A DNA stretch of 17,043 nt from a virus (IMGVR_UViG_2802429225_000003:1-17043); one strand, 5' to 3'. Counted from the stretch's first letter, positions 5,052-17,043 are shown. The notes: a model not told the origin generated them from the letters alone. Numbers and translations: made by a program.

Positions 5052-5708
5052 ATGGACGCACTTACAGATATCGGCGAAATGGTGATATCAACACGCGACG
5101 ATGATTTTTTTTTGCGTCCGTCTTTTATCGCTCTGACCCGAATCGGCTCTCCGGAAGAAATTGTGGAGGCGTACTCCATCATTAACGGCAGAGATTTTGG
5201 TGTACTGGTGCGCGCTGCGGAGTTGCAGGGAGTGCCGTCACCATGGCTGGTGGAATCTGTGAGCGGAACGGCATCCAGGCGAATGCTTAACGCCGCAATG
5301 ACGGTAATTCAGGCGTGTTGTGACAGGGATGCCACAACGCTGGTGGGGGAGCTGGCAGATGATTTGACTCGTCAACACGGCCTGATACCGGATACCGATA
5401 TGCTGATTATTGCGCGTGAATTACTGGAGCATGGCGTTATGGGCAAAGCGCCACTACGCAGATTGCAAAAGCACGAGAATCAGCAGACTTATACGGCAGG
5501 CTTTCGGGCTGTAGAGTATATCACCGCCGCACGTTCACACTTTGGACTTCCACGCGCCGAAGCGGAACAGCTCACAATGACCGCATTTCAGTTAATGCTT
5601 AAAGCGAAATACCCTGAAGAGAAAGGCTTCACCCGCGATGAGTACGATGGCATTATGGCTGCGCACGAGCAGCGGAAAATGCAAAAACTGGAAGCGATGA
5701 AGGCGTAG
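5052..5708 (+). CDS. Tail assembly chaperone (G/GT-like position)
   Basis: 218-aa ORF between the major tail and tape measure genes; GAGTGAGAG Shine-Dalgarno. No overlapping -1 frame extension of 60 aa or more is present downstream. Confidence 0.45.
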   Translation: MDALTDIGEMVISTRDDDFFLRPSFIALTRIGSPEEIVEAYSIINGRDFGVLVRAAELQGVPSPWLVESVSGTASRRMLNAAMTVIQACCDRDATTLVGELADDLTRQHGLIPDTDMLIIARELLEHGVMGKAPLRRLQKHENQQTYTAGFRAVEYITAARSHFGLPRAEAEQLTMTAFQLMLKAKYPEEKGFTRDEYDGIMAAHEQRKMQKLEAMKA

Positions 5709-5787
5709 TGGATTTATGTCAGAAGAATTTGCCGACGGCAGGTAATAGAAGAAAGCCCCGGAAACATTAAGCGTTCTGTAAGTAGCT

Positions 5788-5810
5788 AAATGTTTGCCGA
5801 GGCAACATTT
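5788..5810. promoter_or_regulatory. Imperfect inverted repeat (stem of about 10 bp) in an AT-rich intergenic region
   Basis: AAATGTTTGCC-GA-GGCAACATTT; lies downstream of both the + strand chaperone gene and the - strand acidic gene; no adjacent U-tract on either strand. Confidence 0.3.
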
Positions 5811-5901
5811 ATATGCTCAATACATTCAGATTAACCTTTTTCCCCCTCTTGGTTAAGGAGGCGACGGTTATTAAGTTACCAAAACAGGTGCTGCGCTTGT
5901 G

Positions 5902-6270
5902 TTATTCATGATGTGAATATTGCAAATCGTCAGCTTCACGAGATATATCAAAAAGGATATTTATCGCCAGAAGATATGCATTATCTACAACGCCATATGT
6001 CTCTGGAGTGATAGTGTTAGTATATCGATCGAAAGCATCTTCCAGGTAATCAAGCAAATCGTCATTTAAATACTCACTTCTCGGATCAAGCGCATGCAGA
6101 CCTTTAATACTCTCTCTATATTCGCTGAAGATTTTTGATATAAACGCTTGTTGTTCTGACCAATCATACAAATTAGCAATGGTAAGAGGCCTGTTAAGTT
6201 GTTCAAGTCGGGTGAGTTCACGAACCAACGACTGACAACCATCTCGAAGTTTTTCTGCTGTTAATGCCAT
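5902..6270 (-). CDS. Small acidic hypothetical protein (122 aa); antisense moron within the tail module
   Basis: Only convincing minus-strand gene in the window. The ATG at 6270-6268 is preceded by AGAGGG with a 6-nt spacer; the longer ORF-track form (to 6339) has no ribosome-binding site. Protein carries about 24 Asp/Glu against about 11 Lys/Arg. Flanked by AT-rich non-coding DNA. Confidence 0.55.
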   Translation of the reverse strand: MALTAEKLRDGCQSLVRELTRLEQLNRPLTIANLYDWSEQQAFISKIFSEYRESIKGLHALDPRSEYLNDDLLDYLEDAFDRYTNTITPETYGVVDNAYLLAINILFDISREADDLQYSHHE

Positions 6271-6412
6271 AATTAGCCCTCTGAGATTATTTATAGAAAG
6301 TAATATCTTACTATTTTTGCATTGAAGGCGGAGCTTCACCAGCCAGTTTTGTCAATTCAGTTATGGTGAGCGACTCCTGGCCTTCATGATGTATGACGAT
6401 GTAACAAGACCA

Positions 6413-6437
6413 CCTCGCTCCGGCGGGGTTTTTTATT
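6413..6437 (+). terminator. Hairpin plus T-tract just upstream of the tape measure start
   Basis: CCUCGC-UCCG-GCGGGG stem-loop (6 bp with one G-U pair, tetraloop) followed by TTTTTTATT, ending 15 nt before the tape measure ATG. Confidence 0.3.
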
Positions 6438-6451
6438 GCCCGGAGAATGAC

Positions 6452-9400
6452 ATGGCAGATGAGAAGAACGTCGGCAGTATCGTTTATGAAATAAGCGCAG
6501 ATGTCAAACCGCTGCTACAGGGCGGGAAGCAGGCCATTGATGCACTGGACAAACTGGATACTGCAGCCCAGCAGTCTGGAAGAGGGATGAGTAACCTGGA
6601 CCAGAGCGCGTCGCAAACCGGCACCACGTTTACTGAACTGGCCAGTTATGCTAACTCAATGGACAATCAGCTTCGTAAGCTGAACACCAGCGTGAGCGGT
6701 ATTGCGCGCGCGATGATGGAGGCTCGTACTGGTGTCAGCAGTACCACGAGTGAGTTAAATCGTGGCAATGCAGTAATTGAAGCACTCGGTAACCAGGTCG
6801 CAATACTTGAGGAAGCCCAGGAGAACGGAGCCAGAAGCGCAGCAGTTTTCGCCTCGCAGTTAAGAGCTGGTGCCAATGCTACGGAGGAAGAAAAGCGCAC
6901 TATCGCCGAATTGGCAGGCGTGTTTTATGATCTTAGCGCCGCCTCCGCTAAGGCTGCTAAATCAGCCGCATCGATGGCGGCCGCAACCCAACGTACAGAA
7001 TCATCAATATCCGGACTAGAGAAGGAAGTCTCTATTCTGAATACTGAGATGCAAACTGGTTCCAGAAGTGCTGCCATACTTGCTGCTCAGTTTAGTGCTG
7101 GTGAAGGTGCGTCTGACGCGCAAAAAGCCAAAATTGCACAGCTTGCAGGTGCTCTTTTTGATATGCGGGAGGCGCAAAAATCTGCATCTGCGGCATCAGC
7201 GGAGGCAGCTAAGCAACTTGCGCAGCAGGCAAATGAAGCGAACCGTATCAGCGGAATCACATCTGACCTTTCTAATCAAATAGCTATCCTGAGCGAACAG
7301 CAAACCAACGGAGCCCGCAGCGCAGCAATTCTGGCTGCTCAGTTACGAGCCGGAGCAAGTGCAACTGATGCCGATAAGCAGAAAATAGCCCAATTAACCG
7401 GGCAACTGTACGACATGAAGAACAGTGTCGATACAGGCACAAAAAGCCACGTCAACTGGAAAACCAGCGTACAGCAGGCCGGTTACCAGGTTCAGGACTT
7501 CATTGTTCAGGTGCAGGGTGGTCAGTCTGCTCTTGTTGCGCTCTCGCAGCAAGGATCTCAGCTTGCCGGGATTTTCGGCCCTGGCGGTGCGGTGGTTGGG
7601 GCTATAATTGCGCTTGGTTCTGTCCTCGCGGGCGTGTTGATTACGTCGCTGAATGGCGGCAAGAATGCCATGGTTGCGCTGAAAGAGGCTGCCGAGGCAA
7701 TGGACAAGGTGATCATCGTATCATCACAAGGTGTAGCCGCTCTTTCGGATAAATATGCGGCCCTTGCGCGTGTAAACGCTGACGTTGCAACGCTGCTCCG
7801 TAATCAGGCGCTGCTTGAGTATAACCAGGCCATTTCCAAGATACCGAAGGCCATAAGCGAAGCATCTGATGCTTTTATTACGTTCGGCGACCGTGCGATT
7901 GCCGCCGTTGGCGGGGCGTCGCCGAGCATCAAAAAATTCAACGCCGAGTTGTCCGCTCTCGGGGTCACTTCGAAGGAATGGGGAGAGGCAATTCAGCAGG
8001 CCAATAGTCAGGGGCAGTACGCATCTGGCATCGTAAACTCGCTGTCATCAACGGTGAATACACTTTCATCCCGACTTGGAATAAGCAAACAAGCTGCGTT
8101 TGATTTGGCAAGAGAATTGTCAAATCTGAGTAATAACCCATCACCGGAAGCACTTCAGGAGCTGGCGAAAAAACTCCAGGACATGAAGTCGTCATCCACT
8201 GACGGGCAGTCGGCCATCGCAGGACTGGCGGGTAAGCTTGTTGATCTGGCGAGAGAGGCAGCCAACGCGAAGATCAATGTAGACAGCCTGAATCAGTCCA
8301 CCGATAACCTGACCGCCGGACAGAAAAACCTTATCAAGCAGTCCGGACGTAACCTTGCCCTGTCAAAACTACAGGGTGAGGCTCGGGCCCGCCTGCAGGC
8401 ACAGTATGCCGCTGAAGATGCGGGATTTTCGAAGGACGATCCGCACGCCAAACAGATGGAGAACGACGCCGCAGCTACGTACAAAAATACGCAGGCGCAG
8501 AAAGATTTCCAGTCAACACATAAGAAAAGCATTTCACTGGCTGATTCTGTTGCTCAGAAGTTAGCGAATCTCAAGCAGCAATCGGAGCTCGCAGCCGACT
8601 CAACAAATGAGCTGAGCCGTGAGCAGGCCATGCTGACTGCGCAGCAGTCTCTTGGTAAAGGTGCAACCAAAGAGCAGATCGTATTAGCTGGTCAGTATGC
8701 AGCAAAAAAATGGGATACAGCCAACGCCATAAAAGCTGAAGCAGCGGCCCGAAAGCTCCTCCCTGAAGCAGCAGAGAACGCCAGTTACAAACAGGATGTT
8801 GAAGATCTGAATACCGCCCTGGCTGCGAAGAAAATAAGCCAGGAGCAGTACAATCAAACCTCGGAAAGACTGGCAGCAACACACCAGGCTAACCTCGCAA
8901 AAATTCAGTCGCAGCAGGTGGTAACGCCTCAACAGGAACTTGCGGCGCAGGTTGATCCCGTTCAGCAACTGGCGAATGAGAACGCAAAGAAACTGATACT
9001 CATTGATGAGTACAACAAGGCTGCGCTTGCAATCGTAAATGCAAGGCTGGCTAATGAGTCGCTAAGTCAGAGTGAAGCTGCTGCACAGTCAGCCGCTATT
9101 AACGCAAATACTCTTGCGTTAAAAAATACTCAGGAAACACAGTATGAGGAACAGAGGCTGGCAGCTCTGGAGCAGCAGTACCGTGCGCAATCAGTGTTGA
9201 ATGACTTTACGATGGATATGATCGACGCAGTCGGGCAACGAACCACCAACGCAATCACCGGCATTATTACCGGAACGCAGTCAGCAACAGATGCGCTACG
9301 AAATATGGCTTCAACAATTCTTGATCAGGCCGTTGGTGCTTTAGTTCAGATGGGTGTCCAGGCACTTAAAAACATGCTGATAGGGCAGTCAGCCAGTGCT

Positions 9401-9910
9401 GCTTCTGTTGCGCAGGCTGCAATAACAGGGCCTGCCATTGCCGCAGCATACAGCCCGGCAGCGGCGATGGTTTCGCTCGCATCATTTGGTGCAAATGCCG
9501 CAGCAGCTCAGACGGGGATCGCTTCAACAATGGGACTTACAAAAATGCTGTCCGTCGCTGGCGCTCGCTACAACGGTGGCCCGGTTTCCGCTAACTCAAT
9601 GTATCGCGTAGGTGAAAACGGCAAGCCAGAAATATTCCAGGCCAGCAACGGCAGTCAGTACATGATCCCCGGCGATAACGGACGAGTTGTCAGCAACAGA
9701 GATATGCAGGGCGGAAATAGTTCATCTCCTGTAAATATTGTCATTAACAATACGGCAGCGGGAACCGTTGTAGAAAATCAGGGTTTTAATCCGGACACGA
9801 AAACTATCACCCTCGCAGTGAACGAAGTCGCAAGGCAATTACGCTCGCATACGGGGGTAGTTGCTCGTGCATTGTCTGATAGCTGGAACACCACAGGAAA
9901 GGCACAATAA
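6452..9910 (+). CDS. Tail tape measure protein
   Basis: Longest ORF (about 1152 aa from the ATG at 6452, which has GGAGA 5 nt upstream; the upstream ATG at 6386 has none). Ala/Gln-rich helical composition, internal tandem repeats, a central hydrophobic Gly-rich segment (AGIFGPGGAVVGAIIALGSVLAGVLITSL) and placement before the tail-tip genes. Confidence 0.85.
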   Translation: MADEKNVGSIVYEISADVKPLLQGGKQAIDALDKLDTAAQQSGRGMSNLDQSASQTGTTFTELASYANSMDNQLRKLNTSVSGIARAMMEARTGVSSTTSELNRGNAVIEALGNQVAILEEAQENGARSAAVFASQLRAGANATEEEKRTIAELAGVFYDLSAASAKAAKSAASMAAATQRTESSISGLEKEVSILNTEMQTGSRSAAILAAQFSAGEGASDAQKAKIAQLAGALFDMREAQKSASAASAEAAKQLAQQANEANRISGITSDLSNQIAILSEQQTNGARSAAILAAQLRAGASATDADKQKIAQLTGQLYDMKNSVDTGTKSHVNWKTSVQQAGYQVQDFIVQVQGGQSALVALSQQGSQLAGIFGPGGAVVGAIIALGSVLAGVLITSLNGGKNAMVALKEAAEAMDKVIIVSSQGVAALSDKYAALARVNADVATLLRNQALLEYNQAISKIPKAISEASDAFITFGDRAIAAVGGASPSIKKFNAELSALGVTSKEWGEAIQQANSQGQYASGIVNSLSSTVNTLSSRLGISKQAAFDLARELSNLSNNPSPEALQELAKKLQDMKSSSTDGQSAIAGLAGKLVDLAREAANAKINVDSLNQSTDNLTAGQKNLIKQSGRNLALSKLQGEARARLQAQYAAEDAGFSKDDPHAKQMENDAAATYKNTQAQKDFQSTHKKSISLADSVAQKLANLKQQSELAADSTNELSREQAMLTAQQSLGKGATKEQIVLAGQYAAKKWDTANAIKAEAAARKLLPEAAENASYKQDVEDLNTALAAKKISQEQYNQTSERLAATHQANLAKIQSQQVVTPQQELAAQVDPVQQLANENAKKLILIDEYNKAALAIVNARLANESLSQSEAAAQSAAINANTLALKNTQETQYEEQRLAALEQQYRAQSVLNDFTMDMIDAVGQRTTNAITGIITGTQSATDALRNMASTILDQAVGALVQMGVQALKNMLIGQSASAASVAQAAITGPAIAAAYSPAAAMVSLASFGANAAAAQTGIASTMGLTKMLSVAGARYNGGPVSANSMYRVGENGKPEIFQASNGSQYMIPGDNGRVVSNRDMQGGNSSSPVNIVINNTAAGTVVENQGFNPDTKTITLAVNEVARQLRSHTGVVARALSDSWNTTGKAQ
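6750..7440 (+). repeat. Three in-frame tandem repeats of about 77-84 codons inside the tape measure gene
   Basis: Recurring peptide units NGARSAAVFASQLRAGANATEEEKRTIAELAGVFYDL / TGSRSAAILAAQFSAGEGASDAQKAKIAQLAGALFDM / NGARSAAILAAQLRAGASATDADKQKIAQLTGQLYDM, with cores starting near 6824, 7055 and 7307. Confidence 0.6.
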
Positions 9911-10383
9911 TGGCAACGGAAATTAAATGGCCGTTAGGTCTTCACACAATTCAAAAATCCAGTAAAGCGCGCAATCAGTCGGCAGCTTTTCAGTTATCCG
10001 ATCCACGCAGTGGTCCGCCATATCGCAAGCGGCTAAGTGATGACGTGCCGGTTATCTGGGACGTCACATTTATCTTCGCTGGAGACAATGCAACCATATT
10101 CTGGTCGTGGTTTGAAAACGCCATTGACCGTGGGCGCAAAAACTTCATTCTACCCATTGCAACAGAGTTTGGGATTGTTGATCACGAAGTAATGTTTCTG
10201 CCTGGCTCACTGCTACCAGCCAGCGAAGCTGGTACGGTTTTCACGTATACGGCGCAAATCCTTGCCCGCAAACTTGTTATCCCGGCGGAGTTCCCTGACG
10301 ACATCTGGATTGATCCGGATATCTGGAAGTATCGCAGCATTCTCGATCCGGCTGTTAACTGGTACTGGCCAAATAATCCATAG
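9910..10383 (+). CDS. Minor tail protein (tail tip assembly)
   Basis: 157-aa ORF whose ATG overlaps the tape measure stop (ATAATG); first gene after the tape measure, as for lambda gpM or the distal-tail protein of other long-tailed phages. Confidence 0.5.
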   Translation: MATEIKWPLGLHTIQKSSKARNQSAAFQLSDPRSGPPYRKRLSDDVPVIWDVTFIFAGDNATIFWSWFENAIDRGRKNFILPIATEFGIVDHEVMFLPGSLLPASEAGTVFTYTAQILARKLVIPAEFPDDIWIDPDIWKYRSILDPAVNWYWPNNP

Positions 10384-10388
10384 GAAGC

Positions 10389-10889
10389 ATGATGCCTGTC
10401 ACTGATGAGCAGCGGGCGTACTGGAGCCAGAAAAATCCAGCAGCAGAATTTGATACTGTAACATTTACGCACCCGGCCTTTAAGGATCCGATACGACTGG
10501 TCGCCAATGTCTTCAGCGACATGACATTCAACGGTAATACCTACCGCGCCTGCTCAATGGAAATTGACAAGCCCGAACAAGGGAAAGACCCGGTTAGTAG
10601 CGTCAGCGTGAAGTTTAGCCGTCCGCTGGTGGGCGATGAATTTAAGGCAATCATACGGGCGATGGACCCGTTCGACTGGCTGGCGGCACCTATCACTCTA
10701 TGTTTGCAGCAATTCACAGAGGATGACCCGAATAACCCCATTCAAAATTGGTCGCTTTACGTGACCGAAGACGGTATCCGTATTAGCCGAGACACATTGC
10801 AGGTGCAGGCATCCGACGATAACCCGATGATCCTCAATATGAGCCAAGTCTACGATCTCGATCGCTACCCCAGCCTTACATACATATAG
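10389..10889 (+). CDS. Minor tail protein (tail tip assembly)
   Basis: 166-aa ORF, second gene after the tape measure, with a short intergenic gap and an AGGAAG Shine-Dalgarno. Confidence 0.5.
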   Translation: MMPVTDEQRAYWSQKNPAAEFDTVTFTHPAFKDPIRLVANVFSDMTFNGNTYRACSMEIDKPEQGKDPVSSVSVKFSRPLVGDEFKAIIRAMDPFDWLAAPITLCLQQFTEDDPNNPIQNWSLYVTEDGIRISRDTLQVQASDDNPMILNMSQVYDLDRYPSLTYI

Positions 10890-10897
10890 GTTCCTTA

Positions 10898-11326
10898 ATG
10901 ACAAAAGATGAATTTATCCGGCGCGCCGTTGGCCTGCCGTGGGTTGATCGCGCCTGTAGCTGGCGAGCGATGGACTGTTGGGGCGTGGTGGTTATGTATT
11001 TTCGCTATGTCTACGGCGAGGAATTGCCCTGTGTTGAGGGGTATTCCAGCGGCGAAATCAAAATCACCGACGGATTTCAACGCCAAATCCAGAGTGGTAA
11101 ATGGCGGCGCGTTGAATCCCCCGAGGGTGACTGTATTGCATTTATGTTGTTTAAGCAGGGCGTGGCCTCTCACGTTGGCGTGGTTGTGGATGGGCAATAT
11201 GTTTTACACGCCGCAGGTGATGCGCAACATGAGGGGCAGGTGCGCTGCGACCGACTTGATACATTCAGACGGTTTCATCGAGGGGAAATGATTTTTTATG
11301 CCTGGGAGGGGGGCCGATGCTTGTAA
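10898..11326 (+). CDS. NlpC/P60-family tail-associated peptidase (gpK-like)
   Basis: 142-aa protein with a Cys-containing motif (AMDCWGVVV) and a downstream His-rich segment (SHVGVVVDGQYVLHAAG) consistent with the NlpC/P60 Cys-His catalytic core; position matches the lambda K / gene transfer agent g14 slot. Confidence 0.6.
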   Translation: MTKDEFIRRAVGLPWVDRACSWRAMDCWGVVVMYFRYVYGEELPCVEGYSSGEIKITDGFQRQIQSGKWRRVESPEGDCIAFMLFKQGVASHVGVVVDGQYVLHAAGDAQHEGQVRCDRLDTFRRFHRGEMIFYAWEGGRCL

Positions 11327-13832
11327 TTTATCGCGATCCACGCGGTTTGCTGGTAAGGATGTTTATGAGTTCGATTATTCACTTTCCCTGCAAGATAATA
11401 TCGCAAAGCACTTTCCCGGCGGGCTTGATGCCAGCACGACGCTGATTACATGGAACGGTTGCAAAATTAACCCACTTGAAGTTGACTTGTCGCGCCTCGC
11501 GACGCCGCTGGATCACCTGGAAATCATCATCCGACAGCAGGGGATTGGCACCATGCTGATTGTGGCCATCGTGGCGGCAGTTGCTACGGTTGTGCTGATG
11601 CCTAAGCCCACAATCCCCAACTCCAGTGGTTCGCAGAAAGATTCACCTAATAACGATCTCACAGGACAAACCAACGTCGCACGGGTATATCAGGCAGTTC
11701 CGGATATTTACGGTAAGATCCGCGCCTTTCCCGACCTTGTGGCTCCCTCCTTATCTGAATATATAAACAACGTTAAAAACGTAACCGAGGTGTTGTGCGT
11801 TGGGATTGGCGATTATGAATTTGAAAACGTCAAATATGCAGACACATTACTGAGCACCATTGGTGGCGCGTCGTATGAAATATTTAACCCCGGCGACACC
11901 ATTCCAATACTGTATGACGCAGCTGAATCACCGGACGTTGACGGCCAGGAAATTACACCGCCAAACCTGGGCGACACGGTTCTGTATAGCGCGACGACAA
12001 ACAATATTGTTGCTGTTGAGTATGCGAAGGGCAGTAAGGCAATGTCTTTCACGGTACCTAAAAGCGCTGATTTTCAATATTTTGTCGATAAATCAAAGCC
12101 GATTAATGTGAGACTGACGGTAAATCTTGAATATTCAGTTGTCAGCGGCAACGGTAAGACAACAACGAAGAAAGGGGAGTTTCAGGTCAGTGGACAGATC
12201 GTCAGTATTGGTCAGTCAGATAATGGAGATATTATCGCTCCAGAGAACTATTACGATATTGGCATAGATAACGCAACGGTAAGTAACGACTTCCCGGCTG
12301 ATGGCGTCATTACAGGTGATTACCTGAAAATTGAGGATATGGAGGCGTTATTTGTCGGGCCGTTCATCATGGCTTCTGATTCTGATGAAATCTGGTACAA
12401 CGTCATTTTTCAGCGCGGACTGGACGGAACCGCAAATTTAAACGCTGAGTGGTGGCGGGTAGACAAAGACAATAATGTGATTGAGGGGACAGAGGAATCA
12501 GATTCTTTTTCCTATAGCAATGATACGTATGAAGGGCAGTATTTCACTCGCAAGATTATCCCGAAAGCCGGGCGTGGGCGCTACGCATTCCGTATTTCTC
12601 GCACTAATAACGGCAGCGATCAGCTTACTGACCAGGCCAAACTGGAAGAAGTTTATTCAGTTCAGGTTCGACGAAATGTTCGGGTGCAGGACACATTAAT
12701 TCGCTGCGTTACTCCAGCAACGGAACAGGCAACCGGCATTAAAGACCGAAAATTTAATGCTGAGGTGACACGGAAAACGATTACATGGAACGGATCTGGG
12801 GTGGTAGGTGCGTTGACCCCAAGCCGTGATTTTGCTGATGCAGTACTTCATTCGTTTGTCAGGATTGCAGGTCGCGCTGCCAGTGAGCTGGATCTTGATG
12901 CGTTGTACAGTATCAGTCGATCCCTTAAAAACAAGAATGAGCGCATGGGATGGTTCGATTTCTCATTCGATGACAAAGACATCTCACTCGGTCAGCGATT
13001 GCAAACCATATGTAATGCAGCGCGTGTTACGGTATTTCGTGACGGGCTGAAGTGGCGTTTTGTGCGTGACGAGAAGAAAAGCATTATCTCTGCGCAATTT
13101 GATGCCCGTAATCTGGCGAACGTCGATGATGGCGGTACGCTTCAGTATAAGGGACACCTGCCGACAAGTTACGATGGGATTGAACTGGAATGGGTGGACG
13201 CCACGGATACAAATGATGATGGCACAGATAAAAAGGCGTACATCCGATTACGCATTGACGCGTCTCGCAAACGTATTGTGGAAGGCACTTCAAATCGCCC
13301 CTATAAAATCCAGCTTGCCGGGTGCCGCAACAAAGACCAGGCGATGAATCGTGCGCAGCTTGAAGCGAGGCGACTTATCTATCAGCGACTGAGTGTGGAG
13401 GATACGGCACTTAACGATGCGTGGATGCTGTCGCTTGGTGATCGGGTGCGCTGGGCTGACGTTTACGATGAGGCGATTGCCAGCGGTGAAATATTGTCAA
13501 TTGACGGTAATGTGTTCACCACTTCTGAAACTCTCATTTTTGAAAGTGGGGAAACATACAAAGTCAGTATCACAGATCAGTACGGATACCCTTCAGCATG
13601 GATAAGCGCATTGCCAGTAAATGGTAATAAAAGCGCCTTCAGTACTGATTTCAGCAAGGCTTATACCGCCGACGGCATTACTTCCATGCTTGGCAGTCGT
13701 TTCATTATGACGCCTTCAGTTGCCAGTGAACCTATGGATTTCACGCTTACTGAGAAAGGGCCTGGAAGTGACCCTTCACAAACCAGGATCTCGCTCACTC
13801 AATATGATGAACGAGTGTACGAATACGATTAA
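11298..13832 (+). CDS. Tail tip / host-specificity protein (J-like), possibly with an I-like N-terminal region
   Basis: 844-aa ORF overlapping the upstream gene by 29 nt; hydrophobic helix (GIGTMLIVAIVAAVATVVLMP, about nt 11541-11603) followed by a YGKIR motif reminiscent of the C-terminus of tail assembly protein I family members; large protein in the slot before the tailspike. Confidence 0.55.
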   Translation: MPGRGADACNLSRSTRFAGKDVYEFDYSLSLQDNIAKHFPGGLDASTTLITWNGCKINPLEVDLSRLATPLDHLEIIIRQQGIGTMLIVAIVAAVATVVLMPKPTIPNSSGSQKDSPNNDLTGQTNVARVYQAVPDIYGKIRAFPDLVAPSLSEYINNVKNVTEVLCVGIGDYEFENVKYADTLLSTIGGASYEIFNPGDTIPILYDAAESPDVDGQEITPPNLGDTVLYSATTNNIVAVEYAKGSKAMSFTVPKSADFQYFVDKSKPINVRLTVNLEYSVVSGNGKTTTKKGEFQVSGQIVSIGQSDNGDIIAPENYYDIGIDNATVSNDFPADGVITGDYLKIEDMEALFVGPFIMASDSDEIWYNVIFQRGLDGTANLNAEWWRVDKDNNVIEGTEESDSFSYSNDTYEGQYFTRKIIPKAGRGRYAFRISRTNNGSDQLTDQAKLEEVYSVQVRRNVRVQDTLIRCVTPATEQATGIKDRKFNAEVTRKTITWNGSGVVGALTPSRDFADAVLHSFVRIAGRAASELDLDALYSISRSLKNKNERMGWFDFSFDDKDISLGQRLQTICNAARVTVFRDGLKWRFVRDEKKSIISAQFDARNLANVDDGGTLQYKGHLPTSYDGIELEWVDATDTNDDGTDKKAYIRLRIDASRKRIVEGTSNRPYKIQLAGCRNKDQAMNRAQLEARRLIYQRLSVEDTALNDAWMLSLGDRVRWADVYDEAIASGEILSIDGNVFTTSETLIFESGETYKVSITDQYGYPSAWISALPVNGNKSAFSTDFSKAYTADGITSMLGSRFIMTPSVASEPMDFTLTEKGPGSDPSQTRISLTQYDERVYEYD

Positions 13833-13855
13833 CAGATAACTCCTGTTCACCAATG

Positions 13856-13878
13856 CTCGCCGCTGTGCGGGTTTTTTT
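13856..13878 (+). terminator. Putative intrinsic terminator after the tail-tip gene
   Basis: CUCGC / GCGGG stem (5 bp) with a 6-nt loop, followed by a T7 tract. Confidence 0.4.
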
Positions 13879-13889
13879 ATGGAAAAATT

Positions 13890-15864
13890 ATGGCCACACG
13901 TTACAACACCAATAATCCTGTGCCGTCCCATGCGGTTAAAGATTACAGCAACAACGCCCAAATCATTGATGAACTTGTTCATAAACAGGAATCAACAACA
14001 AAAGACCGGTTCGGAAAAGATCTGAAAACCTGGTACGGAATTAATAAAGAGGCGACCGACGCAACGAACGAGTTCATCGAAAACGGTCAGAATGCAATAA
14101 ATACGTTTAACCAGAATGGCAAGGATGCTATCGATAAATTTAGCAACGATAGCAATGCTGCGATTAATGATTTCGAGAGTGATGCGAATCAGGCGATAAT
14201 TAATTACGGTTATATTCTGGTTGACTCATTTCAGATCGGTGCTGAGATCACGCTCCGGAATCAGGCTCTTCACTGGCCTGCGCCAGAGGGTGACGGAGAA
14301 TATTATCGCTGGGACGGTGAATTGCCGAAGACGGTTCCAGCCGGAGCTACGCCGGAAACGTCAGGTGGGGTTGGGCCGGGAGCGTGGATTGACGTTGGTG
14401 ATGCTTCGCTGCGTAGCGATCTGGCGTCTGGAGGTAAGGCTGCATTGGTTGGCTATGGCAGCGCGACTGTAGAGGGTGCTCTTGACGATCTTTATGCCGC
14501 TAACGCTGCTCAGGGGGGGAAACTGGTTTTGATACTGTTGGCCACTTTCTTAATCTGACTGAATTACGTGCGCAGGCGCCTGCTTCAGCCGGAATGATTG
14601 TATATGTTGTTTCAGCAGCCAGCTTGTCACATGCAGAAACTCATCTTGGCGGCGGTTTTTTTGAGTCAGTCGATAATGTCCAGGCATGGCCTGATGATGG
14701 TGGTATTGTAATTAAACCAGACACAGGGTCGATTGTGTGGCGACGCATTAACTTCACCTCATACGATATGCAATTCTGGGGTGTCAAGCCGGACGGGGCT
14801 ACAGATAATGCGGAGGCAATTACGAAGGCCACACAGTATGCAAAGATGAATAAAGTTATCCTGGATGCACCCGCAGGGAATATTAACACAAGCGAAATGG
14901 TCCCTATTTATAATAATATGGGGATTCGAGGCCACGGAAAGGCTGAAGCTACGGTTTTCTATAAAACAACTAACAATATTTTTAATTATAAAAAAATGGA
15001 ACCACAGTTTTATCTGTGGACGCATTGGTAGGTTTTGTTCCAAATAATTGGGATCTTGCTGACTCTTCAATGGATTCATTTTGCTCTAACGGCAGAATTG
15101 AGAGCTGTATGTTTCGTAGACAGGGACTTGACCAATCAAACGTTGACACCTACAGAAATTATTATGGGTTGTTTTTTGGGAAGGCTGCTGCACCTGTAGT
15201 TCGGCAATGTTCATTTGAATGCGCATATATTGGATGTTATTCATACTGTCCATTCTCAGGAGTCATGGAAATGGTTGCATTCCCTCAATATGCAGGGAAG
15301 GGGTATGGTGGGATCGTTTTTGAGGATTTTCGTGGCGGTCAGATAAGGGTAATTGGTACATCAATGGACATGCGTCTTGTTCAAATAAGCGGTTATCAGT
15401 TTGGTTTTATTTTGTCAGGAATGCAATATACAACAATGACAAACTGTACTGCAGAAAATTGCACTCCAATGGCTGGAGAAACGACTTGCTTTGCATTTAG
15501 CTTCATGAACCCTTATTGTATTGTCATGAATACGTGCGCAACAGAAGAAGTAAAGGGCGGGCAGTTAAGAGTAATAGTTCAAGGAGATCCGTCTTTCAGA
15601 CCATCTTTAATTATAAATGGATTTTTGCCTATAGGTCAGAAAAACCCAATTTCAACAACCCCAATCATTTATGTAGACAATGCGGGCCTTGCAGAAACCA
15701 GCGTGATAATTAACGGAGGTGATTGGGCTATAAGTCCATCAGCAACCAACCTTGTCGCACCATCGGCTAGTGGTGGTGGCACGAAGGTCAGAATGATAGG
15801 AGTCAATGGCTCACCTAAATCAATTTGGACCATCTCCGCTAACGCCGATGTGCAGGAGTTTTGA
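13890..15864 (+). pseudogene. Tailspike / depolymerase-like receptor-binding protein, interrupted by two frameshifts at homopolymer tracts (or intact if the tracts are under-called)
   Basis: Three consecutive ORFs in three frames (13890..14558, 14594..15031, 15016..15864). Adding one G to the G7 run at 14513-14519 and one A to the A7 run at 14990-14996 gives one continuous protein of about 658 aa. It has an Asn-rich repeat N-terminus, an LRSDLASGGKAALVGYG segment, a beta-helix-like start (FWGVKPDGATDNAEAITKATQYA) and a Cys-rich C-terminal part. Confidence 0.6.
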
Positions 15865-15927: not shown

Positions 15928-17043
15928 ATGGTTATGACTAAGAAAAGCAATATAATACATAGTCTTACTTCATTGAGGATGTTTGCTGCCCTTGGCGTGT
16001 TTGTAAGCCATCTGGGAATTTTGTCTCAGTCCTCAATACATCAGTTCAACATAGCTGCAAAATACTTTTTTAATGGGTATGTTGGCGTAACGTTCTTCTA
16101 TATCCTCTCTGGCTTTATTATTAATTACAGTTTTAGCAAGCATTTATCTGAGGGGATGTTTAGCAATAAAGACTTTATTATCTATCGTCTGGCCAGACTA
16201 TTCCCTGTTCATCTTGTTTCACTGGTCTGTGTTCTGTTTTTATTCGGCTATGCAAATAATTGGGGATCTACAAACAAAGAAGCTTTATTCTATAATACAT
16301 TTCTACTTCAATCATTCATACCTGATGCAGGCTATTACTTTTCGTTCAATCCTGTATCATGGAGCATTTCATGCGAAATGTTCTTTTATTTTTGTTTTTG
16401 CCTACTCGTTAAATGCAAAACCAAATATCTCGTATTTCTATTTGCTGCCGTTCAGACTGTAAATGTTTACTTCCTTATACAACCACCAACAGGAATTTCC
16501 TTGCATTGGTTATTCTATATAAATCCTGTATTCAGGATTACAGATTTCATCCTTGGCATTATTATATGTAGAATATTTCTTTCGAAGCCTGTTACTCCAA
16601 AAGTTGTGGCGTGTAGCGCAATGGAATTTGGCTCAATTATTTTTCTAGTGTTAACAATTTATGTGGCAACAAACTACGTGGGCAATATGAATGTTAAATA
16701 TGATCTTTTATATATCCCTTGCATGGCTTCTATTGTTGTTGCGTTTGCCTTTAATGGTGGGGTTATTTCTCGTATTCTTGCAAATAAATATTTAATTTTG
16801 CTTGGAGAAGCTTCATTTTCTTTCTACATGTTCCACTGGATGATAGTATCTAAGTTAATAGAAATAATACAACCTAACAAAAACGATGTGCGTGATGTCA
16901 CTATTTATATAGTTAGCTGCTTAATCAGCTCCGTATTTGTCTCTGTTATTTCGTTTAAATTAATTGAAATGCCAGCAAATAAGTTAATAAGGAATACGTG
17001 GGTAAAGATTAAAATTCAATTACACACAAGAAAACGCGCATAA
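15928..17043 (+). CDS. Acyltransferase-3 family integral membrane protein (O-antigen acetyltransferase-like, probable lysogenic conversion gene)
   Basis: 371-aa strongly hydrophobic multi-pass protein; N-terminal LTSLRMFAALGVFVSH matches the conserved Arg/His-containing first helix of acyltransferase-3 (OafA/Oac-type) enzymes; very low GC; immediately downstream of the tailspike. Start could be the ATG at 15934 instead. Confidence 0.7.
   Translation: MVMTKKSNIIHSLTSLRMFAALGVFVSHLGILSQSSIHQFNIAAKYFFNGYVGVTFFYILSGFIINYSFSKHLSEGMFSNKDFIIYRLARLFPVHLVSLVCVLFLFGYANNWGSTNKEALFYNTFLLQSFIPDAGYYFSFNPVSWSISCEMFFYFCFCLLVKCKTKYLVFLFAAVQTVNVYFLIQPPTGISLHWLFYINPVFRITDFILGIIICRIFLSKPVTPKVVACSAMEFGSIIFLVLTIYVATNYVGNMNVKYDLLYIPCMASIVVAFAFNGGVISRILANKYLILLGEASFSFYMFHWMIVSKLIEIIQPNKNDVRDVTIYIVSCLISSVFVSVISFKLIEMPANKLIRNTWVKIKIQLHTRKRA

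What the first reader, a model, noticed from the sequence alone, without database searches (positions are those of the whole stretch)
11298..13832. Tail-tip protein with an N-terminal hydrophobic helix and 29-nt overlap with the upstream peptidase gene
The 844-aa protein begins inside the NlpC/P60 gene and carries a membrane-like helix followed by a YGKIR-type motif. This resembles a tail assembly protein I-like module fused in frame to the central tip protein rather than encoded separately. The tip-gene layout (157 aa, 166 aa, 142-aa NlpC/P60, large protein) is more reminiscent of the gene-transfer-agent-like arrangement than of lambda M-L-K-I-J.
Basis: inference. Interest (0 to 1): 0.35.

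Follow-up and report, generated by a model that had tools for sequence, protein, structure and literature searches.

The report
Frameshifted phage tail-hub gene with gpI-like head
This is the central tail-tip (lambda J-type) gene of an Escherichia marmotae prophage, which carries a lambda-I-like module at its front, a fusion described in 2006; in this copy a one-base deletion has cut off the real start, so the reported start codon and 29-base overlap are by-products of that deletion.

Summary
The 844-codon ORF at 11298..13832 exists, and its hydrophobic helix and YGKIR motif are real. Its start is not the native one. All close relatives are 838 aa and begin MLVIYRDPRGLLGKDVYEF. The window lacks one G (GCTGGGTAAG to GCTGGTAAG, at 11352-53). 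The native start, ATG 11317, has a strong Shine-Dalgarno sequence and a 10-nt overlap with the peptidase gene, but now stops after 42 codons. The long ORF runs back to an accidental ATG at 11298. The first 18 residues and the 29-nt overlap come from that.

The main interpretation holds. The native N-terminus has three parts:
- a ubiquitin-like beta-grasp domain, residues 1-76, ending in a conserved Gly;
- one very hydrophobic helix;
- a conserved PKP...DSPNN.LTGQTN.AR.YQA.PD.YG..R segment.

This is collinear with lambda gpI and is fused to a gpJ-type hub body. That body is homologous to Sf11 gp14 (PDB 9OCC).

This I-J fusion, next to an NlpC/P60 gene without a JAB domain, was described by Iyer et al. 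in 2006. The gene-transfer-agent comparison is not supported: the fold is far closer to lambda gpJ. The downstream tailspike gene carries two more frameshifts, so this is most likely a decaying prophage. It is ordinary and already known.

The parts
9910..10383 (+). 157-aa distal tail protein (Dit; the gpM position)
   Evidence: It matches the N-terminal 153 residues of Sf11 distal tail protein gp17 (9occ_C, E 4.4e-8) and phrog_384. It directly follows the 1174-aa tape measure gene (6386-9910).
10389..10889 (+). 166-aa DUF1833 protein, equivalent to baseplate hub 1 (the gpL position)
   Evidence: Pfam DUF1833 scores 27.6 bits against a cut-off of 21. It matches Sf11 gp16 'baseplate hub 1' (9occ_F, E 2e-20) and phrog_396 minor tail protein. 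BLASTP shows no similarity to lambda gpL.
10898..11326 (+). 142-aa NlpC/P60 peptidase (gpK-like, without a JAB domain)
   Evidence: Pfam NLPC_P60 scores 29.9 bits against a cut-off of 23, with no Prok-JAB hit. Cys27, His92 and His104 are invariant in an alignment with five relatives and lambda gpK.
11304..11313 (+). Shine-Dalgarno sequence (GGGAGGGGGG) of the native start
   Evidence: Read directly from the sequence. The GGAGG core ends 7 nt before ATG 11317. The element is conserved in L006 and partly in L007.
11317..11445 (+). Native 5' end of the hub gene, now a 42-codon dead-end ORF (MLVIYRDPRGLL, then out-of-frame residues, then TGA)
   Evidence: Translation. The first 12 residues equal the N-terminus of the intact 838-aa relatives. 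The 10-nt overlap with the peptidase stop codon fits the 7-20 nt overlaps seen in relatives.
11352..11353 (+). Site of the 1-nt deletion (GGG in relatives, GG here)
   Evidence: Alignment A2 with L006 and L007. It is the only gap in 9011 aligned nt. The allele is identical in L002, L003 and L004.
11298..13832 (+). The 844-codon ORF as reported. Codons 1-18 are spurious; codons 19-844 equal residues 13-838 of the native protein.
   Evidence: phrog_469 matches residues 19-844 at E 2.6e-173. It is identical to WP_105267619.1 of Escherichia marmotae.
11317..11543 (+). Ubiquitin-like beta-grasp domain (native residues 1-76), interrupted by the frameshift after strand 1
   Evidence: The AlphaFold2 model has pLDDT about 90 over residues 1-75. 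Foldseek top hits are ThiS, MoaD, TtuB, SUMO and ubiquitin. hhalign aligns this region to the gpI Ub-like domain. The terminal Gly76 is conserved in 35 of 40 relatives.
11544..11600 (+). Hydrophobic helix (ORF residues 83-101, IGTMLIVAIVAAVATVVLM)
   Evidence: Mean Kyte-Doolittle value 2.70. Predicted as a helix at residues 78-94 and 80-94. It aligns to the hydrophobic helix region of gpI that precedes LAPK.
11553..11555 (+). In-frame ATG (Met86), used by NCBI as an alternative start for this allele (759-aa product)
   Evidence: P0241 and P0243 (WP_157945139.1, WP_426472498.1) start MLIVAIVAAV. AGGGGA lies 8 nt upstream.
11601..11738 (+). Conserved gpI-C-like 'plug / insertion' segment (PKPTIPN...DSPNNDLTGQTNVARVYQAVPDIYGKIRAFPDL)
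   Evidence: This is the most conserved part of the N-terminal region: S, N, N, N, R, G and P are invariant. It aligns to gpI 154-208 by BLASTP (E 0.007) and within the hhalign match.
11739..13829 (+). gpJ-type hub body ('baseplate hub 2')
   Evidence: It matches PDB 9occ_E, Sf11 gp14, at E 5.2e-144. NCBIfam NF040662 attach_TipJ_rel scores 336 bits against a cut-off of 140 over residues 361-842. Foldseek gives 9occ_E at 1e-78 and lambda gpJ (8k35_A) at 3.5e-27.

Best explanation
The locus is the central tail-hub gene of a siphovirus prophage of Escherichia marmotae. Its protein belongs to the TipJ / lambda gpJ kind and to the Sf11 gp14 'baseplate hub 2' subfamily.

In intact relatives the gene encodes an 838-aa protein with four parts:
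1. a ubiquitin-like beta-grasp domain (residues 1-76, ending in a conserved Gly);
2. one strongly hydrophobic helix;
3. a conserved extended segment (PKP...DSPNN.LTGQTN.AR.YQA.PD.YG..R);
4. the hub-domain body.

Parts 1-3 correspond, in the same order, to lambda gpI, here joined to J in a single polypeptide.

By analogy with lambda (inferred, not shown here), the helix and the conserved segment sit in the lumen of the trimeric tip. [quoted passage not shown] On receptor binding the plug opens and the hydrophobic helix drops toward the outer membrane. The beta-grasp domain acts during assembly and is either flexible or removed. The neighbouring NlpC/P60 cysteine peptidase, which has no JAB domain, is the obvious candidate for removing it.

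In this window a 1-nt deletion after codon 12 separates the native start (ATG 11317) from the rest of the gene. The 844-aa ORF is what remains in frame from an accidental upstream ATG. Together with two frameshifts in the adjacent tailspike gene, this marks a prophage that is losing its tail genes.
For: Frameshift:
- Close relatives start MLVIYRDPRGLLGKDVYEF.
- The deletion is the single gap against L006 in 9011 nt.
- The native start has a strong Shine-Dalgarno sequence and now yields a 42-codon dead end.
- The same allele occurs in four assemblies and on nine contigs.
- NCBI annotates this allele inconsistently, as 844 aa or as 759 aa.
- An intact 838-aa allele is found on 17 E. marmotae contigs.

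Hub identity:
- phrog_469 at E 2.6e-173.
- 9occ_E at E 5e-144.
- NF040662 at 336 bits.
- Foldseek: Sf11 1e-78, lambda gpJ 3.5e-27, T1 5.7e-20, T5 7.5e-11.

gpI-like module:
- A confident beta-grasp model with ubiquitin-like Foldseek hits.
- A collinear hhalign match to gpI and a BLASTP match to the gpI C-terminus.
- Conserved Gly76 and conserved plug motif.
- A hydrophobic helix with Kyte-Doolittle mean 2.70.

Conserved operon: tape measure, about 157 aa, DUF1833, NlpC/P60 without JAB, then the fusion, in Salmonella, Proteus, Citrobacter, Utexia and a soil metagenome assembly.

Literature:
- TAPI-TAPJ fusions with JAB-less NlpC are described in PMC1779556.
- The gpI trimer as a luminal plug with predicted transmembrane helices and an unresolved N-terminal domain is described in PMC10721106 and PMC11101478.
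- Sf11 gp14 was modelled only from residue 81.

Prophage decay: the tailspike gene is broken at a G7 run and an A7 run.
Against: - Pfam PF06805 (Lambda_tail_I) does not hit the N-terminus directly.
- The hhalign probability is only 78%, and the gpI alignment it was run against has low diversity.
- Foldseek E-values for the beta-grasp domain are about 0.02; none is at or below 0.001.
- The helix and plug region has low pLDDT in both models, so its luminal position rests on analogy.
- In the Sf11 and Proteus clade the equivalent helix is amphipathic rather than hydrophobic (Kyte-Doolittle about 1.2).
- Sf11-like phages lack the NlpC/P60 gene altogether, so this peptidase cannot be a universal processing partner.
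- No expression or protein data exist for this allele. Translation from ATG 11298 or from Met86 is not excluded.
Confidence: 0.85

Rival explanations
1. The gene is intact as first read. Translation starts at ATG 11298 inside the peptidase gene, and the 844-aa protein, with its own 18-residue N-terminus, is the functional tip protein.
For: The ORF is open from 11298. NCBI lists this 844-aa product as WP_105267619.1. A weak GAGGGG lies 12 nt upstream.
Against: Residues 1-18 match nothing: the phrog_469 match begins at residue 19. Every close relative has MLVIYRDPRGLL instead. The ATG is an accidental TAT-GCC junction in the peptidase frame and is not conserved in L007. The replaced residues include strand 1 of the beta-grasp domain. 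The strong Shine-Dalgarno sequence serves ATG 11317 instead.
Confidence: 0.04
2. The frameshifted allele still yields a working hub protein. This could occur by initiation at Met86 (ATG 11553), giving a 759-aa product that begins at the hydrophobic helix and lacks only the ubiquitin-like domain. It could also occur by occasional -1 slippage between 11317 and 11352.
For: NCBI annotates the 759-aa form on two genomes. AGGGGA lies 8 nt upstream of Met86. The ubiquitin-like domain is not seen in mature lambda or Sf11 tips. The reading frame downstream is otherwise intact, and P0243 differs from the window protein at only one residue.
Against: There is no canonical slippery heptamer at the site (sequence). 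The tailspike gene next door carries two further frameshifts, which argues for loss of function of the whole tail module. Lambda gene I is required for tail assembly according to the literature read, and nothing shows that the beta-grasp domain is dispensable.
Confidence: 0.08
3. The hydrophobic helix is an ordinary inner-membrane anchor or signal-anchor for a membrane-bound assembly intermediate. On this reading it is unrelated to gpI, and the N-terminal domain is a family-specific domain rather than an I-like module.
For: PF06805 does not hit. The helix is Ala/Val-rich and single, whereas gpI has a longer Gly-rich region with two helices. pLDDT is low in this region.
Against: hhalign gives a collinear match across all three elements. 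BLASTP matches the gpI C-terminus. The equivalent residues from 81 onward are ordered within the Sf11 tail tip structure. The gene sits directly after the K-like gene, as I does in lambda. Iyer et al. classified such fusions as TAPI-TAPJ.
Confidence: 0.04
4. The tip module is of the gene-transfer-agent type (g12-g15) rather than the lambda type.
For: Foldseek does find the RcGTA chain 6tba_8A at E 1.9e-6.
Against: Lambda gpJ matches about 20 orders of magnitude better (3.5e-27). TIGR02219, the GTA-type NlpC family, scores 14.9 bits against a cut-off of 81.9, lower than lambda gpK's own 24.3 bits. No NCBIfam model at all hits the 157-aa or 166-aa proteins, so TIGR02217 and TIGR02218 are not met, and there is no GTA_TIM hit. 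Head, tail and tailspike genes of a complete siphovirus surround the locus.
Confidence: 0.02

Closest known systems
Shigella siphophage Sf11 gp14, 'baseplate hub 2 protein' (PDB 9OCC chain E; PMC12724387); PHROG family phrog_469
   Same: Full-length homologue: E 5e-144 by sequence, about 39% identity by tblastn to Sf11-like phages, and Foldseek E 1e-78 with TM 0.71-0.80. It has the same N-terminal plan of a roughly 70-aa domain ending in Gly, a helix, and the SPNN.L..QTN.AR...P..G.IRAFPDL segment. Its neighbours gp17 (distal tail protein) and gp16 (hub 1) correspond to the 157-aa and 166-aa proteins here. It is followed by a tailspike with the same kind of N-terminal adaptor domain.
   Different: The Sf11 helix is amphipathic (Kyte-Doolittle about 1.2 in that clade, against 2.70 here). 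Sf11-like phages have no NlpC/P60 gene between hub 1 and hub 2. The window copy is frameshifted.
Lambda tail assembly / insertion protein gpI (Pfam PF06805 Lambda_tail_I plus 'TAPI-C')
   Same: The order of elements is the same: ubiquitin-like beta-grasp ending in Gly, a hydrophobic helix region, and a segment (L/M)(A/M)PK..(T/I)P...N......N.....G/A..P..YG..R. The gene position directly after the K-like peptidase gene is also the same.
   Different: Here it is fused to the J-type protein rather than made as a separate 223-aa protein. It has one Ala/Val-rich helix instead of a long Gly-rich region with two helices. PF06805 itself does not hit.
TAPI-TAPJ fusion operons of Iyer, Burroughs and Aravind 2006 (PMC1779556, Table 1 row 5)
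   Same: The description fits exactly: TAPI fused to TAPJ in prophages, an NlpC domain lacking JAB, and an extra beta-strand-rich protein in the operon. The layout is conserved in six relatives examined here.
   Different: Nothing in the architecture differs. This copy has lost its reading frame after codon 12.
Lambda gpJ / NCBIfam NF040662 'host specificity factor TipJ family'
   Same: The hub-domain body matches: NF040662 at 336 bits, Foldseek E 3.5e-27 to 8k35_A, and BLASTP E 3e-4 over J 221-415.
   Different: It is much shorter (838 aa against 1132 aa). The Foldseek alignment to lambda gpJ (8k35_A) is 756 columns long, so the protein has no room for J's roughly 300 C-terminal fibre and receptor-binding residues. 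Receptor binding is presumably done by the separate tailspike gene downstream.
RcGTA g12-g15 tip module
   Same: The general order is the same: distal tail protein, hub, small NlpC/P60 without JAB, large hub protein. There is a remote fold match to 6tba_8A (E 1.9e-6).
   Different: No GTA-specific family model is met. Structural similarity is far weaker than to lambda, T1 or T5. Whether RcGTA g15 has a beta-grasp N-terminus was not tested.

Membership tests
TipJ / gpJ-type central hub protein (NCBIfam NF040662; Pfam PF13550) | Score above the curated cut-off of NF040662 attach_TipJ_rel | tested here: met
   336 bits against a cut-off of 140, over residues 361-842. The intact relative P0001 scores 324.9 bits.
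TipJ / gpJ-type central hub protein (NCBIfam NF040662; Pfam PF13550) | Pfam Phage-tail_3 (PF13550) domain above the gathering score | tested here: not met
   22.1 bits against a cut-off of 23, over residues 567-722. This is just below threshold. Six relatives carry a precomputed PF13550 hit.
TipJ / gpJ-type central hub protein (NCBIfam NF040662; Pfam PF13550) | Hub-domain fold shared with lambda gpJ | tested here: met
   The AlphaFold2 model has mean pLDDT 83. Foldseek gives E 3.5e-27 to 8k35_A, 4.8e-24 to 8iyk_F and 5.7e-20 to the T1 tip.
TipJ / gpJ-type central hub protein (NCBIfam NF040662; Pfam PF13550) | Trimer at the tail tip of the virion | not testable with these tools
   Shown only for the homologue Sf11 gp14, at 3 copies per virion.
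Sf11 gp14 / phrog_469 'baseplate hub 2' | Full-length sequence homology | tested here: met
   phrog_469 at E 2.6e-173, residues 19-844 against profile positions 15-895 of 903. 9occ_E at E 5.2e-144, residues 63-843.
Lambda tail assembly protein I (TAPI; PF06805 plus TAPI-C) | Hit to the Pfam PF06805 Lambda_tail_I model | tested here: not met
   No hit at E up to 10 for the repaired 152-aa N-terminus. Lambda gpI itself scores 100 bits.
Lambda tail assembly protein I (TAPI; PF06805 plus TAPI-C) | N-terminal ThiS/MoaD-like beta-grasp fold ending in a conserved glycine | tested here: met
   pLDDT is about 90 for residues 1-75, with strand-strand-helix-strand-strand-strand order. All top Foldseek hits are ubiquitin-like, with probability up to 0.99 and E about 0.02. 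Gly76 is present in 35 of 40 relatives. In the window itself strand 1 is lost to the frameshift.
Lambda tail assembly protein I (TAPI; PF06805 plus TAPI-C) | Hydrophobic or glycine-rich linker after the beta-grasp domain | tested here: met
   Residues 83-101 have a Kyte-Doolittle mean of 2.70. The segment is Ala/Val-rich rather than Gly-rich and forms one helix, not two.
Lambda tail assembly protein I (TAPI; PF06805 plus TAPI-C) | C-terminal TAPI-C (plug and beta-strand) segment homologous to gpI 154-213 | tested here: inconclusive
   hhalign gives probability 78% and E 1.7e-5 for the whole collinear match. BLASTP gives E 0.007. No structural superposition was possible because pLDDT is below 50 in this region.
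Lambda tail assembly protein I (TAPI; PF06805 plus TAPI-C) | Separate polypeptide encoded between K and J | tested here: not met
   It is fused in frame to the J-type body in all 58 non-redundant full-length relatives whose N-termini were inspected. No separate I-like gene is present in the eight contexts examined.
Gene transfer agent tip module (RcGTA g12-g15) | Membership of the GTA-associated families TIGR02217, TIGR02218, TIGR02219 or Pfam GTA_TIM | tested here: not met
   The 157-aa and 166-aa proteins have no NCBIfam hit. The NlpC protein scores 14.9 bits against TIGR02219 (cut-off 81.9). The 844-aa protein has no GTA_TIM hit.
Intact protein-coding gene | Native start codon in frame with the body of the gene | tested here: not met
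   The 1-nt deletion at 11352-53 puts ATG 11317 out of frame, with a stop after 42 codons.

The most novel reading that the evidence does not exclude
In this I-J fusion family the small NlpC/P60 cysteine peptidase (Cys27, His92 and His104 invariant), rather than a JAB metalloprotease, might act as the dedicated 'deubiquitinase'. It would cut after the conserved Gly76 and release the beta-grasp domain. The hydrophobic helix would then be the new N-terminus of the hub protein inside the tail lumen. On that reading the Met86-start product of the frameshifted allele would mimic the mature protein and might still assemble. Nothing found here excludes this. Sf11-like phages, which keep the beta-grasp domain but have no peptidase gene, argue that cleavage is at least not universal.
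Probability: 0.15. Interest if true: 0.5.

Novelty: already known. Interest (0 to 1): 0.15.

Why it matters
The result matters mainly as a correction. An ORF finder, and one version of the NCBI annotation, report a start codon, an 18-residue N-terminus and a 29-nt overlap that exist only because of a single-base deletion. This allele should be treated as a frameshifted pseudogene or as an N-terminally damaged gene.

The architecture beneath it was predicted in 2006 and is now anchored by solved tail-tip structures. It consists of a ubiquitin-like domain, a hydrophobic helix and a plug segment fused to the hub protein, next to a JAB-less NlpC/P60.

One question remains open. It is not known whether, or by what enzyme, the ubiquitin-like domain is removed, or what gpK-type peptidases do. 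This family would be a convenient system for that question, because substrate and putative enzyme are adjacent and the cleavage site would lie within one polypeptide.

Tried and rejected
- Megablast of 9900-13900 and of the tailspike region against the phage collection and against complete E. coli genomes found nothing. The host is E. marmotae, which is not in the E. coli set.
- The genome-contig scan with P0001 returned only one locus, from Scandinavium sp., at 61% identity. It did not identify the host. The host came from the exact-sequence cluster look-up.
- Pfam and NCBIfam scans of the repaired N-terminal 152 aa gave no hit at all. The gpI relationship therefore rests on profile-profile and fold evidence.
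- The gpI homologue search returned only close relatives, at least 69% identical among those listed. The gpI profile used for hhalign is shallow.
- BLASTP of the 166-aa protein against gpL, and of the 142-aa protein against gpK, gave no significant alignment.
- Programmed frameshifting was considered and rejected. There is no X XXY YYZ heptamer at 11340-11355, intact relatives simply carry one more G, and two other frameshifts lie in the next gene.
- A sequencing error was considered and rejected. The deletion is identical in one NCBI assembly and in Logan assemblies of two sequencing runs, ERR11019294 and SRR18551723.
- The phage chi tail-tip paper is not in the searchable library.

Full report
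**What is in the sequence**

The window is the late, structural arm of a siphovirus prophage. It contains the following genes, in order:
- head protease or scaffold, decoration protein and major capsid protein;
- connector proteins;
- an Ig-decorated tail tube protein;
- a DUF6246 protein;
- a 1174-aa tape measure protein;
- ORFs of 157, 166, 142 and 844 codons;
- a tailspike region;
- an O-acetyltransferase gene.

The ORF in the finding, 11298..13832 on the + strand, is there and is 844 codons long. It overlaps the 142-codon ORF 10898..11326 by 29 nt. The 142-aa protein is an NlpC/P60 peptidase: Pfam gives 29.9 bits against a cut-off of 23, and there is no JAB domain.

The hydrophobic segment is real and unique in the protein. 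Residues 83-101 (IGTMLIVAIVAAVATVVLM) have a mean Kyte-Doolittle value of 2.70, against 0.81 for the next best window. YGKIR lies at residues 138-142.

**The start codon is a by-product of a frameshift**

The phrog_469 profile matches the protein only from residue 19. Just downstream of ATG 11298, and out of frame with it, lies ATG 11317. It is preceded by GGGAGGGGGG at ideal spacing and reads MLVIYRDPRGLL before running into a stop after 42 codons.

The 21 closest full-length ones (60-97% identical, 825-854 aa; 838 aa in the nearest ones) all begin MLVIYRDPRGLLGKDVYEF or a close variant.

The 97%-identical relative P0001 lies on metagenomic locus L006. That locus aligns with window 5317-14326 at 97.4% identity with exactly one gap in 9011 columns. 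The gap is a G missing from the window at 11352-53, where GCTGGGTAAG has become GCTGGTAAG.

In intact relatives the hub gene overlaps the peptidase gene by 10 nt. More distant relatives show overlaps of 7-20 nt.

ATG 11298 is an accidental ATG across the TAT-GCC codons of the peptidase gene. It is not present in the Salmonella relative.

The deletion is identical in one NCBI assembly and in Logan assemblies of two sequencing runs. The exact 844-aa product is on nine contigs. It is therefore a real allele.

The exact-sequence look-up places the allele in Escherichia marmotae as WP_105267619.1. NCBI has also annotated the same allele as a 759-aa protein starting at Met86 (ATG 11553). An intact 838-aa allele is present on 17 other E. 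marmotae contigs.

**What the protein is**

By sequence it is a full-length homologue of Shigella siphophage Sf11 gp14, the 'baseplate hub 2 protein' in the cryo-EM structure 9OCC (E 5.2e-144). The 166-aa and 157-aa neighbours match Sf11 hub 1 (gp16) and the N-terminal part of the distal tail protein (gp17).

NCBIfam places residues 361-842 in the TipJ family, at 336 bits against a cut-off of 140.

A full-length AlphaFold2 model of P0001 has mean pLDDT 83. Its Foldseek matches in the PDB are as follows:

| Target | Foldseek E-value |
|---|---|
| Sf11 gp14 | 1e-78 |
| Lambda gpJ | 3.5e-27 to 4.8e-24 |
| T1 tail tip | 5.7e-20 |
| T5 pb3 | 7.5e-11 |
| RcGTA chain 6tba_8A | 1.9e-6 |

**The N-terminal module**

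An alignment of 40 diverse N-termini shows a conserved three-part plan:
1. About 75 residues ending in a Gly (35 of 40).
2. A hydrophobic stretch of about 20 residues.
3. The most conserved segment of the region, PKP..PN...DSPNN.LTGQTN.AR.YQA.PD.YG..R..PDL.

AlphaFold2 folds residues 1-75 with pLDDT about 90 into a strand-strand-helix-strand-strand-strand unit. This is followed by a helix at 78-94 and then a low-confidence region.

Every top Foldseek hit for this model is a ubiquitin-like beta-grasp protein (TtuB, ThiS, MoaD, SAMP1, SUMO, ubiquitin). Probabilities reach 0.99, but E-values are only about 0.02.

Profile-profile comparison with a lambda gpI family alignment gives a single collinear match. 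Residues 12-152 align to gpI 36-213, with probability 78% and E 1.7e-5. BLASTP aligns VLMPKPTIPN...YGKIRAFPDLV to gpI MLAPKARTPR...YGEMRVGSRVV at E 0.007.

Pfam's Lambda_tail_I model does not hit directly. NCBI nevertheless names several relatives 'MoaD/ThiS family protein'.

The fold evidence is good and the sequence evidence moderate.

**How it most likely works (inference from lambda)**

In lambda, gpI is an 'insertion protein'. Residues of about 101/135 to 223 form a trimeric tripod in the tip lumen. The tripod plugs the channel and contacts the C-terminal coiled coil of the tape measure protein. It also threads beta-strands through the gpJ hub domains.

The hydrophobic helices of gpI are predicted to be transmembrane. 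They disappear from the density when LamB opens the tip, and the authors propose that they insert into the outer membrane. The N-terminal domain is never resolved. These points come from PMC10721106, PMC11101478 and PMC12617516.

In Sf11 gp14 only residues 81-827 were modelled, that is, from the helix onward.

The simplest reading is that the fused protein does in one chain what gpI and gpJ do in two. What happens to the beta-grasp domain is not known; it may be cleaved or merely flexible.

Iyer et al. proposed that the K peptidase releases the domain at the terminal glycine. Here the K-like protein has only the NlpC/P60 domain, with Cys27, His92 and His104 invariant. However, Sf11-like phages have no such gene at all.

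**Comparison with what is known**

[quoted passage not shown] That is this operon. I found the same layout in Salmonella, Proteus, Citrobacter, Utexia and a soil metagenome assembly. The architecture is therefore already known.

The gene order is M-L-K-(I-J). No GTA family model is met. The fold is about 20 orders of magnitude closer to lambda gpJ than to the RcGTA protein.

**State of the prophage**

The tailspike gene that follows is split into three ORFs (13890-14558, 14594-15031, 15016-15864). tblastn with the intact 697-aa tailspike of phage TL-2011b shows the reading frame changing at a G7 run (14513-19) and at an A7 run (14991-97). The same fragments are called in the other assemblies.

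That makes three frameshifts in two essential tail genes, while the 97%-identical relative L006 has both genes intact. This points to a prophage in decay.

Translation from ATG 11298, which would give a beta-grasp domain lacking strand 1, cannot be excluded with these tools. Nor can translation from Met86, which would give a product without the beta-grasp domain.

**Verdict**

The biology is ordinary and was described before. The useful outcome is the corrected gene model, with the native start at 11317 and a 1-nt deletion at 11352-53.

Noticed in passing
window 13890-15864: The tailspike gene is split into three ORFs of 222, 145 and 282 aa. The two frameshifts fall at homopolymer runs G7 (14513-14519) and A7 (14991-14997). 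The N-terminal adaptor part (13890-14429) is 90% identical to that of the intact L006 tailspike. The rest is of the type found in the O103 phage TL-2011b (73% identical over the last 282 aa). The same fragments are seen in other assemblies.
   Followed up: partly
window 14326 onward, compared with L006 9011 onward: Similarity to the 97%-identical relative L006 stops inside the tailspike gene at 14326. The receptor-binding part of the tailspike has therefore been exchanged between otherwise near-identical prophages.
   Followed up: partly
window 15928-17043 (runs off the end): An Acyl_transf_3 O-acetyltransferase gene (phrog_3333, E 1.7e-67) lies directly after the tailspike, in the same pairing as in phage TL-2011b. 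It is a likely O-antigen-modifying (serotype conversion) gene.
   Followed up: no
window 11553 (Met86 of the ORF): NCBI annotates the same frameshifted allele in two ways. One is 844 aa from ATG 11298 (WP_105267619.1). The other is 759 aa from ATG 11553 (WP_157945139.1, WP_426472498.1). The second starts exactly at the hydrophobic helix.
   Followed up: yes
window 13855-13872: A terminator-like GC-rich hairpin followed by a T run lies between the hub gene stop (13832) and the tailspike start (13890).
   Followed up: no
window 5902-6339, minus strand: A 145-codon ORF on the opposite strand sits between the DUF6246 gene and the tape measure gene, with no Pfam hit. The relative L006 has a 122-aa minus-strand gene called at the same place. 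It may be an inserted accessory gene.
   Followed up: no
L001 (Escherichia phage Sa179lw, Sf11-like), locus 5370-5546: Sf11-like lytic phages keep the beta-grasp N-terminus on the hub protein but have no NlpC/P60 gene. A 58-aa gene on the opposite strand sits in its place. The peptidase is therefore not an obligatory partner of the ubiquitin-like domain.
   Followed up: partly
L014 (Utexia brackfieldae), locus 9989-10508: A Cas1 gene lies about 3.5 kb downstream of the related prophage tail module in this genome. This is probably just the prophage boundary.
   Followed up: no
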